Shown here piece by piece: positions 21,001-27,000 of a stretch of 64,000 bases of DNA (position 1 is its first letter; each line of letters begins with the position of its first letter). Position numbers: made by a program. Source of the stretch: Escherichia coli (GTDB lineage Bacteria; Pseudomonadota; Gammaproteobacteria; Enterobacterales; Enterobacteriaceae); the NCBI RefSeq assembly GCF_011045215.1, contig NZ_CP049202.1; one strand, 5' to 3'.

Positions 21001-24000
21001 TATTGCCTGAAGGTACTAATGAAATAAGAAGTACTTGAATATCCACATCTTGTTGCTAACTTATTTATAGATAATTCACTTATCATTAAACGTCTGGCAT
21101 GTTGCATACGCACATCTAACAAGATTTGAGAAAAAGATGTGTTTTCTTCATAAAGTTTTCTTTTTATAGAACTTTCACTCATGTAAAGATACTGCCCAAT
21201 ATCTTTCATTTTCCATATTCGTGATGGTTGTGAATATATAATACATCTTATTTTCATTACCAATGAGTTGATGCTTTTAACCAACAGAGATAAGAACCCT
21301 GTTTGCTCAGAAAATGCTGAAATACATGTAAAAAACATCTGCTCTGAAAATGCAATGGGTAGTAATGTATCGGAATTGAGTTTTCGTATTATACTGCGTA
21401 AGATAGATACCTCTTCTAATGGTGCTTTTATATAATGTGTAACATTCGGATTTTCTACATACAATGGTATACAGGTGCATTCCAGATACTTTGTTATTGT
21501 TTTTTCACTAATTTTTAATTCTGTAAATTTACTGGAATATACATAAAAATCATATCTTGATCTACTATCTGTTAGAAAAGCATGATTTTTATTTGCTTTT
21601 ATTTTTTTTCCATCGATGTTAATGATGAATGATGAATTAACCAGAATTACTGAACAGGGATACATCTCAATTGCTCCATTATTTAGTTCATAAGCCATAC
21701 CATTGTTGAATGATGGGGTTGTATGTCATGTATATGGAAAATGTATATATATCTTTTAAAGTCACCTCTCCCGATAAATTATTAATTCATCATAACTTAC
21801 TCCTGACTTATAAATAATTTTGTTGTAACTATGGTTTTATCTAGAATTTTCTCGGTGTTATGCGTTTCAGTTATTTGTAAATAATATTAAATATATTCTA
21901 TGTGTTATTTTTGTTATTTTGGAACAAAATTAACTTGTTAACAATAATAACTTTTACAAGTTCAATGAAATTAAACGATTTAGTCAATATTCATAATTAT
22001 GGTTTGACTCATAGTTATATAAAAATACCTTTAATATATATCAATACATTGAAAATATTGGTATTTTATTTTTTTTGTTGTTTTGTTTTTTGTATCATGT
22101 TGTTCTTAAAAAAGAAAAGTGTACATAAAAATTAACATACCTCCTTATTGGTATTTTTTATGGTTTCTACATTACCGTGATATAATTTATTCGCAGTATA
22201 TATAAATTTTACTTATTGTTGGAGATGGAAATGAAATACATTCTTAGTGTGGTTGCTCTTTCAGTATCACTGATATCCACTTCTGCGTTAGCTCAGGATT
22301 CCCATATAACCGGTGAACCTCATATACAGGAAGTATCAACTGTTACAGAGAAAAACATTAAGCTTGAGCAGCGTGGAATGGAGGTTATAAGAGATATCCA
22401 ATATTCCCGTTTGTCTTTATTTAGTGGCGATACATCTACAGCCAGTAAATTGATAAAAAAAGCTAATGATTTATTGGGTTCTGAATATAAAACATGGGAA
22501 TCAATTATCAGAAAAGACAAAAAAGCGCCACAAAAAGATGATGTATACGTCATCATTAACAGTCAACTGACGCTTGCAGAAGATTTTACAGCTACACCAG
22601 AAAAGCAGAAAGCCATTGATGAAGCAAATAAAAAACTGGATAAAGGTGACAAAAAAGGTGCAATTGAAAAACTGCAGTTGGCAGGAATTAATATATCTGA
22701 AACACAGTGGCTTATGCCTTTAAAACAGACTCAGCAGAAAGTGAGGAGTGCACAGATCTTGATGGCTGAAGGTAAATATTACGAAGCCAATCTCGCTCTG
22801 AAAGGTGCTGAAGATGGCATAATTATGGATACGGTCAGCTTTCACTAATAAATAACCCAAAATTATCATATTATACAAATCGACCAGCCTCTGTTAATTA
22901 CAGAGGCTGGATATAATTTCAATCCGAATTATCATTTTAATATCTACCCAGCCTGTATCAACCACAGAAAATACCACAGTAGGTCTGAATATACTGAAAA
23001 AACATGATTGCGATAGTGTTATTTCTCCTAGTGAGCTGGCCCCCTGAAATACCAGACAGTAGATGTATCTTAAAATAAGAGATAGGCTTGGATATATGTC
23101 TAACACTAGTTCTAATTTTGAGATGGCTGGCGTTTTGTTAGGAAAAGAGGCGCGTAGACGTAAAACACCTCAGGAAAAAATCGCAATTATTTAACAGACT
23201 ATGGAGCCTGGCATGACGGTGTCCCACGTGGCGCGTTTGCATGGAATTCAGCCCAGTCTGTTGTTTAAGTGGAAGAAACAATACCAGGAAGGAAGTCTCA
23301 CTGCTGTGGCAGCCGGTGAAGACGTTGTTCCTGCTTCTGAACTGGCCGCTGCAATAAAGCAGATTAATCAGCTTCAGCGTTTACTGGGCAAGAAATCTAT
23401 GGTCCCCACCATTTTTGCAACACTGATTTTGATTGATGTTGGCCAGCCTAAATCTATCCGGCGTCATTATGGGCATGGATGCCCGCGCCTCGATGAGTTC
23501 CGCACCTGATGAGCCCAAAAAACCATCCGGCTTCAGTGAGCTATTTTCTTGCTGAGGCTTTTCATCAGGCCGATATGCCGTTCATGTCATCAATAATCAG
23601 TCTTCGCAAAACCAGATTGGGAACTACTTTAATTCATGATTAACCTGCCAGCCAGAATGGCGCCATCGTTACCTTTCGAACACAGTCTGCTGTGTTGTGA
23701 TTGCCCACGCTATCCGGGCTAATTTGTTGGCCAGTGCACAACATACTACGCTGGAGTGTTTTCTTGCCAACAGCGCCCTGACCCAGTCCGCCAACCTTCC
23801 TGACTGATTCTCGATTCTCTGAATAAAGGATCTTGCGCACTGAACGAGTAACCGTCGCAGATTTTTATCTCCGCGTTTACTTATCCCTAAAAGTGTATTT
23901 TTACCACCTGTGCTGTACTGCCGGGGTACCAGACCGGTTGAAGCAGCAAAGTCCCGACTGCAGCTATATTGTTTACCGTCTCCCAGTTGCGATGACAATA

Positions 24001-27000
24001 CGCTGGCGGTTATCGGACCAATACCGGGTATTGTCTGAAGACGTTGTCCTGTCTCATCACGACTCAGTTCCTGCTCCAGTGCGATTTCAAGCTCGGTGAT
24101 CTGTCCGACAAGATAAATATAATGGGCATGTAAGCGCATCAGTAACTGCGCCAGATAGGGAGGAAGTTCGTTCTCTGCAAGTACTGTTGAAAGTCGTTTT
24201 ACCACTGCGACTCCTGTCGGCATACTGATGCCAAATTCCAGCAAAAAAGCATGCATCTGATTGGTCGTTTTGACTTTATCACTGACCAATGATTCCCTGA
24301 CCCGGTGAAGCGCCCGCATGGCCTGCTGAGCTTCTGTTCGTGGTTGCACAAATCGCATGGAGGGGCGAGATGCCGCTTCGCATATGGCTTCCGCATCGAC
24401 AAAATCATTCTTGTTGCTCTTAACAAAAGGGCGAACGAACTGCGGAGAAATCAATTTTGCTTCATGACCTAAATCAGCAATCCGGCGAGCCATAAAATGA
24501 GCTCCGGCGCAGGCTTCCATCATAACGGTAGACGAGGCACAGCCTGCCAGAAACTCAATAAGTTTGGTACGGGTAAACTTTTTACGCAGCAATACCTTGC
24601 CTGACTTATCTTGGCAGTGAATGTGAAAGGAATGCTTGCCAAGATCTATGCCAATAAGCGTAATGTTTTGCATGATGGTCTTCTCCATGAAAGAAAAACA
24701 CTCTACCAGGGTACAGCTCACAGGGTGGTGGGGACCATCTCATTAACCATGCTGTGAGACTGGTTAAAGATTGAGCTAATCAGGCGCATTCTGGCGAATT
24801 CTGAGGAATTGGCAGGATAGCTGGAGAGGATTTTTCGCGTAGGGGCGTTTGCTCCAGTGGCTTAGGGCAAATACCGACTATGAAGGAACCGCCAGTCCTG
24901 GATGCCGCTGGCGTCGGCAGTGTATTAGCTCATATGTGCGGGGCGCGGGATAGTTTCCAGCTCTTGCCCTGGGACATTGCGTTCGCGGTGTAGCTGTTGT
25001 TGTAGTTCAACCTTGCGTTGCTGGCGGCGGGTTTGTTCCATTGGGTCGCGGGTATCGGCGGCAGCAAGGCTATCAATGCCATCAATCTGACAATAGCCAA
25101 CAACCAGGTCTGTGGTCGGTTTCATCAGTCCCAGCATCATTTCTTCGCACGGTGGCGCGGTGCGGGTACGGATGAGCGCATCATCGACGATTTCGAAGGC
25201 CCAGCAATTAATCAGGTCTTCCAGTTCGAAATCTTCAATTAAGCCATCGTCAACATCTTCCTGGCAGACCTCAATCTGAATATCGCGGTACATCGCAATA
25301 TCCCGCTTCGTCCACTGGCTGAATGGCTTGTTTTGTAGTTGCCGTTGTTTTTCTTCAGGCGTTAAAGATGCGTTTTTCCCGGCCTTAAACAACCCCTGCG
25401 CGTCGTCTTTATTGCCATCATTATGTTTGTTTAAAAAGCTCATTATTCTTTTCCTTTGAATGGATTGTTCTTGCTCTCTAGCAACTTAGCGCGACCCAGC
25501 AACGTCCGGGCCAGCGCCTCCGCCTTCCTTAGCCTAAGCCCTGCGTCTTCTGCGTCCAGATCTACATTCCTGATAGCCTCTACAGCCTGCTCCGCTGCGT
25601 CCTGGGCGTGAATCCACTTAAATATGCCGATATGCTCACGAAAGTCTGGATGCTCATATTGCCAGCGGCAGATTGTTCTGAAGCTCGGCATGTCAGGCAT
25701 GTTGCCAATCTCTCTGAGACTATGGCCTTCAGCTACCAGCAAGCAGATTTCTTCAGCGATAGCGACCCCATACTTAGCGCTTTTTCTGCTTAAACTTGTG
25801 ACATCAACAGGTAAGTTATTGATTTCTTTATCATCACCCTTCATAATTACCCCCGAATTGATAGCGAATTGATAGCGAATTACCCCCGAATTACCCCCGA
25901 ATTACCCCCGAATTACCCCCGAATAACCATCATTTAGCCCTCGCCTACATCACACCCGACACTGGATAATTGGCTGTGTAGTTCGCGTTCAATCATCCGC
26001 AGCCGCTTGATAAACGCTCGTTCTTCAGCATTGCGGGGCGCATCTTTGGCATTAATATGTTTAAGCAGATCATGAAATGTGCCAAAAACATACTCAGCAA
26101 AGAGTCGAAGCTGTTGCCGTTTCATCGGCATATTGCCTGTGTTGCAATGGCGAATTTCATTAACCTGATTGCTGATAACTCTGGCCATTCCGGTACATAC
26201 ACGAAGCGCTAACATGCTAATTTCCTCTCAATCCGTATAATGGGAAGCAGATTTAAACATTGCTTTTCTGCTAACCACTTAAATCATTTTTCGCATTGTT
26301 GATTAGCCCGCCCGCAATGGACGGGTTTTTCTTTGCCTAGCACGGGATGCCAATGGCGTTCAGAATGCGTTTTCTCACGTCGGCATCCATTTCATAAGAC
26401 TTTGGTGTTTCAGTGCTCTGACGCGCTTCTGGTGCGTTGTCGGGCACTTTAACCTCGAAGTAATCCCGCTGTTCCTTAGTCAGGTAATCCCCGCTAAAAT
26501 AATCACCGAAAGCATCGTCCAGCTTATTATCGAAATAATCGAGGCCTGGTACTTTATTTTCTGGCTGCTGCCCCTGTTTCGGCAGAAGTCTAATAATCTC
26601 CAGCTTTATCTTCGCTGCCTGCTTATATAGTGCTTGCCTTTCGCTACCGGTTTTCTCGGCGGCGGCCTGTTCCAATATCTGGACCTGTTCAACAAGTTTT
26701 TGAATTTCGTCTTTCATAATTTGATCCCCGTTCATCAAATCATTTGTTCAGCCAGTTAAAGCCACGCCCTAATTTCCTTGCTACTTTGCCAGCAAGGAAA
26801 CGGCGACAAGTCTTTTCATCGAATACTTCCCTTGTTACGGAATCTGGTTTGCGCATCATTTCCGGAACTAAATCAGCCAGGCGCGCTGCTTCGCCATCCA
26901 GAATGTCCGCCAGCAAATCAGGAATGAGCTCAATTACTCGTTCTGCGGTTTTGTTCATCTCTTCATCAAATGCGCGTTTGTCTAATGTCTCCTGTGAAGG

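What the first reader, a model, noticed from the sequence alone, without database searches (positions are those of the whole stretch)
23400..24745. Two IS110-family copies share a conserved non-coding end and both abut IS2-group orfA sequence
Copies at 23400-24745 and 56430-57715 encode related recombinases and have 200-270 bp of non-coding DNA downstream of the gene, including a conserved block of about 110 bp. IS110/IS1111-family recombinases are known to be guided by a structured RNA from the non-coding end, so these ends are candidate guide-RNA loci. In both cases the element end is joined to IS2-like orfA sequence at the ...LQRLLGKK codon region, which fits sequence-specific targeting of IS3-family elements.
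Basis: partly seen in the sequence, partly recalled or inferred. Interest (0 to 1): 0.55.

Follow-up and report, generated by a model that had tools for sequence, protein, structure and literature searches.

The report
RNA-guided insertion sequences nested in transposons
The window holds three IS1111-type insertion sequences, not two; each carries a guide RNA gene at its non-coding end and sits precisely inside a different mobile element (an IS2-group IS, a Tn3-type transposon end, an IS66 gene), a clear but unsurprising example of a mechanism described in 2024.

Summary
Two intact IS110-family elements of the IS1111 group exist:
- A: 23396-24745, 1350 bp.
- B: 56379-57704, 1326 bp.

Both have perfect 12-bp subterminal inverted repeats and a 254-273-nt non-coding region downstream of the transposase gene. 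About 220 nt of that region is conserved.

This region is a structured seekRNA/bridge RNA locus:
- Helices covary.
- Two hypervariable internal-loop strands match each element's own flanks across 27 guide types.

A is a precise, duplication-free insertion at the LLGKK|T codons of ISEc48 orfA. Copies encoding one and the same transposase variant (same 90% cluster as A, same guides) occupy the same position in two other IS2-group elements. Targeting of IS2-group orfA is therefore real.

B is an IS4321/IS5075 relative sitting in a Tn3-family 38-bp inverted repeat. IS2 begins only after the 22-bp outer half of that repeat, at orfA codon 5 and not at LQRLLGKK.

C is an ISEc11 relative redirected to an IS66 tnpC gene.

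The mechanism is already known. A and C are new members of a known kind. Interest is modest.

The parts
23396..24745 (-). Element A: 1350-bp IS1111-group insertion sequence. No ISfinder name could be assigned.
   Evidence: Ends defined by comparison with 60+ relatives. Removing exactly this stretch from the E. coli C5 plasmid copy restores the ISEc48 orfA frame and matches intact ISEc48.
24727..24745 (-). A left end: 7-nt extension TAATGAG followed by the 12-nt subterminal inverted repeat ATGGTCCCCACC.
   Evidence: Perfect reverse complement of 23399-23410.
23669..24673 (-). A transposase gene, 334 aa, intact. DEDD domain plus Transposase_20 domain, with the GLVPRQYSTGG motif.
   Evidence: NF033542 at 347 bits; PF01548 and PF02371; 73% identical to IS4321 Tnp.
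23439..23581 (-). A seekRNA/bridge RNA core: target-binding stem-loop 23501-23572 and donor-binding stem-loop 23450-23500.
   Evidence: Covariance model R1 scores 134.6 bits, E 1e-37. Consensus structure and covariation.
23544..23554 (-). A target guide g1, CAGCAAGAAAA, on the 5' strand of the internal loop. It is complementary to the top strand T|TTTCTTGC of the target.
23518..23528 (-). A target guide g2, GGATGGTTTTT, on the 3' strand of the internal loop. It has the same sense as ATGGT|TTT of the target and so pairs with the bottom strand.
23396..23420 (-). A right end: TTGCAA (23415-23420, a -35 box for a promoter completed only in the circle junction), subterminal repeat GGTGGGGACCAT (23399-23410), and the 3-nt extension AGA.
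   Evidence: Read from the sequence. The promoter TTGCAA-17 nt-GATAAT is an inference, by analogy with ISEc11 (PMC11187229).
23032..23395 (+). ISEc48 (IS3 family, IS2 group) left end and orfA up to ...LQRLLGKK. This is A's right flank.
   Evidence: 97.6% identical to intact ISEc48. Annotated as 'IS3-like element ISEc48'.
28460..29320 (+). Remainder of the same ISEc48 copy (orfA 3' part and orfB). It is separated from A by a 3.7-kb insert at 24750-28459.
   Evidence: 98% identical to ISEc48; junction sequence.
56379..57704 (-). Element B: 1326-bp IS4321/IS5075-type element. The tnp gene is at 56633-57637.
   Evidence: Tnp is 97% identical to IS4321 Tnp. Its 90% cluster is named IS4321/IS5075. 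Ends.
56423..56566 (-). B seekRNA/bridge RNA core. g1 is GTGAAACGGAA (56529-56539) and g2 is GTATATTTTCT (56503-56513).
   Evidence: R1 scores 123.1 bits, E 3e-34. Guides match TTCCGTTTC and ATAT|TTTC of the inverted repeat.
56357..56378 (-). Outer 22 bp of the 38-bp Tn3-family inverted repeat split by B. The inner 16 bp are at 57705-57720.
   Evidence: The same split repeat flanks B-type copies in several unrelated contexts. A Tn3-family tnpA lies adjacent in L003.
55132..56356 (-). IS2 copy lacking its left end. orfA starts at codon 5. It carries an unoccupied near-cognate site for A at 56091-56104.
41246..44808 (-). Element C: an ISEc11 relative (1428 bp without the insert), precisely inserted in an IS66-family tnpC gene. 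Its tnp is split after codon 12 by an IS21-family element at 42505-44635.
   Evidence: 92% aa identity to ISEc11 Tnp. The intact tnpC reads straight across the junction.
41295..41436 (-). C seekRNA/bridge RNA. g1 is AAUCUGCUCUG and g2 is CUGGGAGAAU. The donor-loop 3' strand is AUAUAGA.
   Evidence: R1 scores 33.7 bits, E 6e-8 over the full model length. Guide-to-flank matches read.

Best explanation
A, B and C are IS1111-group members of the IS110 family, which move by an RNA-guided DEDD recombinase.

Anatomy of each element:
- a 7-nt left extension;
- a perfect subterminal inverted repeat;
- the recombinase gene;
- a downstream non-coding region that encodes a two-loop guide RNA (seekRNA/bridge RNA).

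Target-binding loop. Two internal-loop strands read the target. [quoted passage not shown] The 3' strand (g2) has the sense of the left flank plus the first bases of the right flank, so it pairs with the bottom strand.

Donor-binding loop. This second loop reads the element's own ends. Its 5' strand is complementary to left-end bases 3-7(9). Its 3' strand equals the last 5 bases of the right end plus the crossover base(s).

Insertion. The excised circle, whose junction should complete a promoter (TTGCAA, 17 nt, GATAAT in A), recombines with the target. No duplication results.

Targets. The guides differ, so the sites differ:
- A homes to the LLGKK|T codons of IS2-group orfA (ISEc48 in this window).
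- B homes to the 38-bp inverted repeat of Tn3-family transposons.
- C homes to a conserved stretch of an IS66 tnpC gene.

Shown here: element anatomy, precise duplication-free insertion, conserved and covarying structure, guide-to-flank matching, and independent insertions of A-type copies.

Inferred by homology with ISEc11, ISKpn4 and IS621 experiments: that the RNA is made, that it binds the recombinase, and that it directs strand exchange.
For: FAMILY AND ANATOMY
- (perfect 12-bp subterminal repeats; non-coding region downstream).

PRECISE INSERTION WITHOUT DUPLICATION
- A: (intact ISEc48 reads CTTCCATGGT|TTTCTT.CCC).
- B: (16 + 22 = 38-bp inverted repeat).
- C.

STRUCTURE
- RNAalifold consensus on 27 guide types.
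- 97% of cells paired; 57 double-change cells against 16.7 +/- 3.9 in shuffles (0 of 500); slid controls give 2-10.
- A model built from 24 relatives, none from the window, hits A, B and C.

GUIDES
- The longest exact match of g1 and g2 to an element's own flanks averages 8.3 and 8.1 nt. Against the flanks of other guide types it averages 4.4 and 4.3 nt (table).

INDEPENDENT A-TYPE EVENTS
- Beyond ISEc48 itself (window A, C5 plasmid), one identical Tnp variant (P0003) with the same guides sits at the same position in two further IS2-group elements whose flanks are only about 70-84% alike.
- A Salmonella member of the same 90% cluster carries different guides and sits in a different site that matches them.

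DONOR LOOP
- C has left end GA.. with loop strand AUAUAGA. Its relatives L109 and L110 have left end AA.. with loop strand AUAUAAA.

LITERATURE
- seekRNA shown for ISEc11, ISKpn4, ISPa11 and ISPst6, with the top-strand match lying 5' of the bottom-strand match (PMC11187229).
- Bridge RNA predicted in the right end of 93% of IS1111 elements (PMC11208160).
Against: - There is no expression or binding data for these particular elements.
- Rfam 15 has no family that matches them.
- The single-sequence fold of A is only modestly better than shuffles (z = -2.3).
- The long-range closing helix (UUUUGCGA/GUUGCAAAA) never varies and overlaps the putative -35 box, so it is not supported by covariation.
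- In the A/B clade the donor-loop 3' strand reads AUAGAUU. That matches the integrated right junction (ATAGA|TT) better than the predicted circle junction (ATAGA|TA), so the crossover details are unresolved.
- A-type copies in the C5-like and pAA-like plasmid lineages could all descend from one event.
Confidence: 0.9

Rival explanations
1. The conserved non-coding end works only as DNA, for example as recombinase-binding sites, a terminator or promoter elements. No guide RNA is involved.
For: Part of the region (TTGCAA and the subterminal repeat) is plausibly DNA signal. The closing helix never varies. There is no expression data here.
Against: - Compensatory changes occur in helices 4, 6 and 8.
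- The two most variable blocks track each element's flanks, one in antisense and one in sense. A DNA-binding-site model does not predict this.
- C is 92% identical in protein to ISEc11, whose non-coding region was shown to give an RNA essential for transposition (PMC11187229).
Confidence: 0.04
2. The A-to-IS2-group association is a historical accident: one ancient insertion that then spread with its host IS. It is not site-specific targeting.
For: All 65 full-length copies in complete E. coli genomes and all 49 in plasmids share ISEc48 flanks. All exact-protein copies lie at one plasmid locus.
Against: - One identical transposase variant (P0003) is found at the homologous codon position in a 93% IS2 relative and in an 84% ISEc48 relative, whose flanks are only about 70% identical to each other. 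ISEc48 itself carries window A and the C5 plasmid copy at that same position.
- Both guides match the site.
- More than 300 genomes carry empty ISEc48 sites.
Confidence: 0.03
3. One reading: both A and B target IS2-group orfA at the LQRLLGKK codons, or the shared block is IS2-derived.
For: Both elements lie next to IS2-group orfA sequence in this window.
Against: - B is flanked by the two halves of a Tn3-type inverted repeat here and in unrelated loci.
- IS2 begins 22 bp beyond B, at codon 5.
- No other complete E. coli genome has this B-to-IS2 junction.
- The shared block lies inside the IS ends and is present in genera with no IS2 nearby.
Confidence: 0.01

Closest known systems
IS4321 / IS5075 (IS1111 group; Partridge & Hall 2003, cited in PMC11187229 and PMC11208160)
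   Same: B's transposase is 97% identical to IS4321's. The length is 1326 bp. The subterminal repeats lie 7 nt from the left end and 3 nt from the right end. B is inserted at a fixed position in a 38-bp Tn3/Tn21-type inverted repeat. A shares the whole architecture and an RNA scaffold about 78% identical.
   Different: A's transposase is only 73% identical. Both of its guide strands are replaced, so it inserts in IS2-group orfA instead of transposon inverted repeats.
ISEc11 and its seekRNA (Siddiquee et al. 2024, PMC11187229)
   Same: C encodes a transposase 92% identical to ISEc11's and has the same end architecture. For A, B and C the top-strand match lies 5' of the bottom-strand match, as reported for IS1111-family seekRNAs. 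The retargeting of A and C parallels the published natural redirection of ISEc11 versus ISXne4.
   Different: ISEc11's published target is GTGAAAATACTG, whereas C sits in IS66 tnpC at CTGGAA|GAGCAGATG. In C the first left-end base and the donor-loop base also differ (G instead of A). A and B belong to a different subclade, and R1 scores C at only 34 bits.
IS621 bridge RNA (Durrant et al. 2024, PMC11208160)
   Same: [quoted passage not shown] The target loop is programmable and the donor loop is more conserved. The promoter is completed at the circle junction.
   Different: IS621 is in the IS110 group, with its RNA in the left end and very short subterminal repeats. Here the RNA is in the right end and the repeats are 12-13 bp. 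In the A/B clade only a single T is shared between circle junction and target at the crossover, not a matching dinucleotide.
ISEc21 (IS110 group), which targets IS3-family transposase genes (PMC11187229)
   Same: It is also an RNA-guided IS whose natural target is a conserved coding stretch of IS3-family elements.
   Different: ISEc21 belongs to a different group (upstream non-coding region). It targets the second-D codons of the DDE motif in orfB of ISCfr6, ISEc92 and ISEc93. A targets the LLGKK|T codons of orfA in the IS2 group.

Membership tests
IS110 family, IS1111 group | DEDD (RuvC-like) transposase with PF01548 and PF02371 domains, 330-350 aa, with a GL-P----S/TG motif. | tested here: met
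   NF033542 scores 347, 345 and 319 bits for A, B and C. Pfam families. Lengths are 334, 334 and 339 aa. GLVPRQYSTGG and GLVPRQTGSGG are seen.
IS110 family, IS1111 group | Subterminal inverted repeats of 7-17 bp, set in from the ends. | tested here: met
   A and B have perfect 12-bp repeats and C a perfect 13-bp repeat. They lie 7 nt from the left end and 3 nt from the right end.
IS110 family, IS1111 group | The longer non-coding region lies downstream of tnp. | tested here: met
   273 and 254 nt downstream against 72 and 67 nt upstream.
IS110 family, IS1111 group | Site- and orientation-specific insertion without target duplication. | tested here: met
   Empty sites were reconstructed or observed for A, B and C. 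A-type insertions recur at the homologous position.
seekRNA / bridge RNA | [quoted passage not shown] | tested here: met
   Structure and covariation. Guide-to-flank matches in 27 guide types. Model search.
seekRNA / bridge RNA | The RNA is expressed, co-purifies with the transposase and is required for circle formation and insertion. | not testable with these tools
   Shown experimentally only for ISEc11, ISKpn4, ISPa11, ISPst6, ISEc21 and IS621 (PMC11187229, PMC11208160).
seekRNA / bridge RNA | A promoter is completed when the ends are joined in the circular intermediate. | tested here: inconclusive
   In silico, A's junction gives TTGCAA, 17 nt, GATAAT (sequence). TTGCAA is invariant in the clade. 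No circle was observed.
IS4321/IS5075 (copy B) | Near-identical transposase, and insertion at a fixed position in the 38-bp inverted repeat of Tn21/Tn3-family transposons. | tested here: met
   97% aa identity to IS4321. The cluster is named IS4321/IS5075. The split inverted repeat is shown. At 97% aa identity it is an isoform or close relative, not the type copy.
IS4321/IS5075 (copy A) | The same target and a near-identical transposase. | tested here: not met
   73% aa identity. Guides and target both differ. A is a relative, not a member.
ISEc11 (copy C) | The same IS: transposase above about 98% aa identity, and target GTGAAAATACTG. | tested here: not met
   92% aa identity. The flanks are CTGGAA|GAGCAGATG in IS66 tnpC.
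Any Rfam 15 family | A match at the family's gathering score. | tested here: not met
   There is no hit in either non-coding region at gathering threshold. At E up to 10, A's end (the only one searched at this threshold) gave only chance hits.

The most novel reading that the evidence does not exclude
Enterobacterial IS1111-group elements have repeatedly evolved guides against conserved sequences of other mobile elements. Examples here are the IS2-group orfA LLGKK|T codons, IS66 tnpC, Tn3-type inverted repeats and, in Salmonella, an rpn/Transposase_31 gene.

On this reading they act as hyperparasites that use other transposons as multi-copy, horizontally spreading safe harbours, and they inactivate those transposons in the process. 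The IS2-group-homing element A would be an unnamed, recently active example. Its guides tolerate one mismatch on either side.
Probability: 0.35. Interest if true: 0.45.

Novelty: new member of a known kind. Interest (0 to 1): 0.33.

Why it matters
The mechanism itself, RNA-guided IS110/IS1111 recombination, was established in 2024, so nothing here overturns current understanding. The locus still has some value:

- **Natural reprogramming series.** It spans 27 guide types on one conserved scaffold in the IS4321/IS5075 clade. It also includes an ISEc11 relative in which the guide, the first left-end base and the donor loop changed together. Such series are useful for learning the design rules of IS1111-type bridge RNAs.
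- **Annotation.** 'IS110 family transposase' copies can be assigned their ends and targets from the guide strands alone.
- **IS-in-IS nesting.** It documents an IS that specifically disrupts IS2-group elements, which matters for reading IS nesting in E. coli virulence plasmids such as pAA.

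Tried and rejected
- **Rfam.** The gathering search over the whole window and the E up to 10 search on A's end gave no bridge or seekRNA family, only chance hits.
- **Naming A.** The seekRNA paper's supplements lack a close relative of A. Database names in A's 90% cluster are generic. Partridge & Hall 2003 (PMC219399) is not held.
- **A's odd left flank in this window.** I first suspected a second, off-target insertion site.
  - Searches of the flank found nothing in plasmids or phages.
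  - Only one partial 83% match turned up in 5426 E. coli genomes.
  - The exact 30-mer is absent from metagenome contigs.
  - A BLAST of intact ISEc48 against the window then showed the rest of ISEc48 3.7 kb away. The flank is therefore a later 3.7-kb insertion 4 bp from A's end, not a second target.
- **Dinucleotide core in the A/B clade.** I considered a TT or AT core. It was rejected because only one base (T) is common to the circle junction and the target, and because the T count in intact ISEc48 (4) fits only the boundaries TAATGAG...ATAGA.
- **Single-sequence folding of A.** The result is weak (z = -2.3). The argument rests on comparative data instead.
- **Exact 13-mer ATGAACGCATCCC at 53048-53060.** The neighbouring bases show no further similarity to C's end. 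I treated it as probable chance and did not pursue it.

Full report
**What is there**

The two regions each hold an intact IS110-family recombinase gene on the minus strand. Both hit NCBIfam NF033542, 'IS110 family RNA-guided transposase', at 347 and 345 bits against a cutoff of 140. The proteins are 74% identical.

I fetched 80 relatives from one-genome-per-species contigs and compared the ends. The boundaries follow from that comparison:
- A = 23396-24745 (1350 bp).
- B = 56379-57704 (1326 bp).

Each element begins with TAATGAG followed by a 12-nt repeat. Each ends with the perfect reverse complement of that repeat followed by AGA.

The non-coding DNA is 72 and 67 nt upstream of the gene and 273 and 254 nt downstream. 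The downstream 220 nt are 77.7% identical between A and B, while the coding sequences are only 66.6% identical.

**What the elements are inserted in**

*Element A.*
- A's right flank is the reverse complement of an IS2-group orfA ending ...LQRLLGKK.
- In E. coli C5 plasmid A and in pAA-type plasmids, the left flank continues the same gene as [13 protein letters not shown].
- Deleting exactly 1350 bp restores the frame.
- An intact copy, annotated ISEc48, reads CTTCCATGGT|TTTCTTACCC straight across the site.
- A is thus a precise insertion without duplication.

In this window the left flank is different. The remainder of ISEc48 lies at 28460-29320. A 3.7-kb insert (24750-28459) splits ISEc48 four bases from A's end.

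*Element B.*
- B is flanked here, and in unrelated chromosomal and plasmid loci, by CTTA.CGT...AT(A/T)T on the left and TTCCGTTT....CCCC on the right.
- These are the 16-bp and 22-bp halves of a 38-bp Tn3-family inverted repeat.
- B's transposase is 97% identical to that of IS4321. Its 90% cluster is named IS4321/IS5075.
- IS2 homology begins only at 56356, at orfA codon 5.
- No other complete E. coli genome has that junction.
- The claim that both elements join IS2 orfA at LQRLLGKK is therefore wrong for B.

**The non-coding end is a guide-RNA locus**

The alignment of 27 distinct types shows a strongly conserved scaffold interrupted by two hypervariable blocks.

RNAalifold gives two stem-loops. 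Counted on the alignment:
- 97% of cells pair.
- 57 cells carry changes on both sides, against 16.7 +/- 3.9 in shuffles (0 of 500 shuffles reached that value).
- Slid controls give 2-10.
- The covariation sits in the helices that close the two internal loops.

The long closing helix never varies and overlaps a likely -35 box, so it remains unsupported.

The two variable blocks are the two strands of the first internal loop:
- **g1**, on the 5' side, is the reverse complement of the right flank. In A, CAGCAAGAAAA matches T|TTTCTTGC. In B, GTGAAACGGAA matches TTCCGTTTC.
- **g2**, on the 3' side, repeats the left flank and runs across the junction. In A, GGATGGTTTTT matches ATGGT|TTT. In B, GTATATTTTCT matches ATAT|TTTC.

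Across the 27 types, the longest exact match to an element's own flanks averages 8.3 and 8.1 nt. Against other types' flanks it averages 4.4 and 4.3 nt. The order, with the top-strand match 5' of the bottom-strand match, is the one reported for IS1111-family seekRNAs (PMC11187229).

A covariance model built from 24 relatives, none of them from the window, was then run on the window:

| Element | Bits | E-value |
|---|---|---|
| A | 134.6 | 1e-37 |
| B | 123.1 | 3e-34 |
| C (third locus) | 33.7 | 6e-8 |

Rfam 15 has no corresponding family.

**Is A's targeting of IS2-group elements real?**

Within complete E. coli genomes and PLSDB, all full-length A copies share ISEc48 flanks. All exact-protein copies lie at one plasmid locus. 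Taken alone, that is compatible with a single ancestral event.

A variant transposase from the same 90% cluster (P0003) settles the question. That identical protein, with identical guides, is found at the homologous LLGKK|T position in two further IS2-group elements:
- an ISEc48 relative at 84% identity, present at several chromosomal places;
- an IS2 relative at 93% identity, with left flank CCATCGT.

ISEc48 proper carries window A and the C5 plasmid copy at that same position. The flanks of these hosts are only about 70-84% identical to one another, so these are separate insertions.

A Salmonella member of the same cluster has different guides (AACATAAAAAA and GAGCAGTTTTT). It sits in a Transposase_31 gene with flanks GGCAGT|TTTTATGC, which match those guides.

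Empty ISEc48 sites exist in more than 300 genomes. The IS2 copy beside B carries an unoccupied one-mismatch site.

**The third element**

C (41246-44808) has this anatomy:
- a GAATGTA extension and a 13-nt subterminal repeat;
- a transposase 92% identical to that of ISEc11, split after codon 12 by an IS21-family element at 42505-44635;
- a precise, duplication-free position in an IS66 tnpC gene. The intact gene reads ATCCTGGAA|GAGCAGATG.

Its guides match that site. ISEc11's published target differs (PMC11187229), so C is a redirected relative.

Comparing C with two ISEc11-like copies shows the donor-loop 3' strand changing together with the first base of the left end. C has AUAUAGA with GA..., and the relatives have AUAUAAA with AA.... 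This supports the assignment of the second loop to the element's own ends.

In the A/B clade the analogous strand is AUAGAUU. It fits the integrated right junction better than the predicted circle junction, so the crossover details remain open.

**Mechanism and status**

The anatomy, the precise insertions, the covarying structure, the guide-to-flank rule and the independent A-type insertions are shown here.

Three things are inferred from experiments on ISEc11, ISKpn4, ISPa11, ISPst6, ISEc21 and IS621 (PMC11187229, PMC11208160):
- that the RNA is made (probably from the circle-junction promoter TTGCAA, 17 nt, GATAAT);
- that it binds the recombinase;
- that it directs strand exchange.

**Verdict**

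The finding is real and the guide-RNA idea is right. The shared-target claim holds only for A.

B is a known IS in its known kind of target. A and C are apparently unnamed, naturally retargeted members of a known kind. An IS110-family element that targets IS3-family genes has already been described (ISEc21), although at a different gene and from the other subgroup.

This is a neat natural case of guide reprogramming and of IS-in-IS nesting, not a new system.

Noticed in passing
It is an ISEc11 relative (92% aa) inserted precisely in an IS66-family tnpC gene. Its own seekRNA lies at 41295-41436. Its transposase gene is split after codon 12 by an IS21-family element (42505-44635, with AAAC duplicated).
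   Followed up: yes
window 24750-28459: A 3,710-bp insert splits ISEc48 at CTTCCA^TGGT, only 4 bp from A's left end.
- Its ends form an imperfect inverted repeat (AGGTCTGAGACTG ... CAGTCTCACAGC), and CA may be duplicated.
- It carries an AlpA/excisionase-like HTH gene (27082-27303), a gene like a terminase small subunit (25443-25844) and unknown ORFs.
- It has no integrase or transposase.
- It has no megablast match in plasmids or phages, and only one partial 83% match in 5426 E. coli genomes.
- Its origin and mode of insertion are unexplained.
   Followed up: partly
window 56091-56104 (+ strand): The IS2 copy next to B carries CATCGTTTTCTTGC, a one-mismatch version of A's target. It is identical at the core to the site that A-type copies occupy in an IS2 relative elsewhere (L096). 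Here it is unoccupied.
   Followed up: yes
L004/L005 (pAA-type plasmids) and L102, right junction of A-type copies: The right flank reads TTCTTGCC, with one T fewer than in the window, C5 and intact ISEc48. In the pAA plasmids the transposase gene is also annotated as frameshifted. I did not resolve whether the missing T arose at insertion or later.
   Followed up: no
A/B clade donor loop (window 23450-23459 and 56434-56443): The donor-loop 3' strand AUAGAUU(U/C) matches the integrated right junction (ATAGA|TTT in A, ATAGA|TTC in B) by 8 nt. It matches the predicted circle junction (ATAGA|TA) by only 6 nt. B's C at the last position fits its own flank. This may relate to the published need for target-derived flanks during excision.
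   Followed up: partly
L106-L108 (Salmonella enterica): A member of A's 90% protein cluster carries different guides. It interrupts a Transposase_31 (rpn/YhgA-like) gene at GGCAGT|TTTTATGC.
   Followed up: partly
window 20178-20264 (+) and 14478-14594 (-): Two Rfam gathering-score hits elsewhere in the window. One is a group II intron catalytic domain (RF00029, 63 bits). The other is an ALIL pseudoknot (RF01497, 121.5 bits), the frameshift signal of an IS3-family element.
   Followed up: no
window 53048-53060 (- strand): An exact copy of C's 13-nt subterminal repeat ATGAACGCATCCC lies inside what looks like a fimbrial usher gene. The neighbouring bases show no similarity to C's end, so it is probably chance.
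   Followed up: no
window 57970-58541: A RelE/ParE toxin-antitoxin gene pair lies just inside the Tn3-type inverted repeat that B interrupts. The same arrangement occurs in ETEC plasmids (hits H27-H31). This fits a Tn3-family transposon remnant that carries a toxin-antitoxin module.
   Followed up: no
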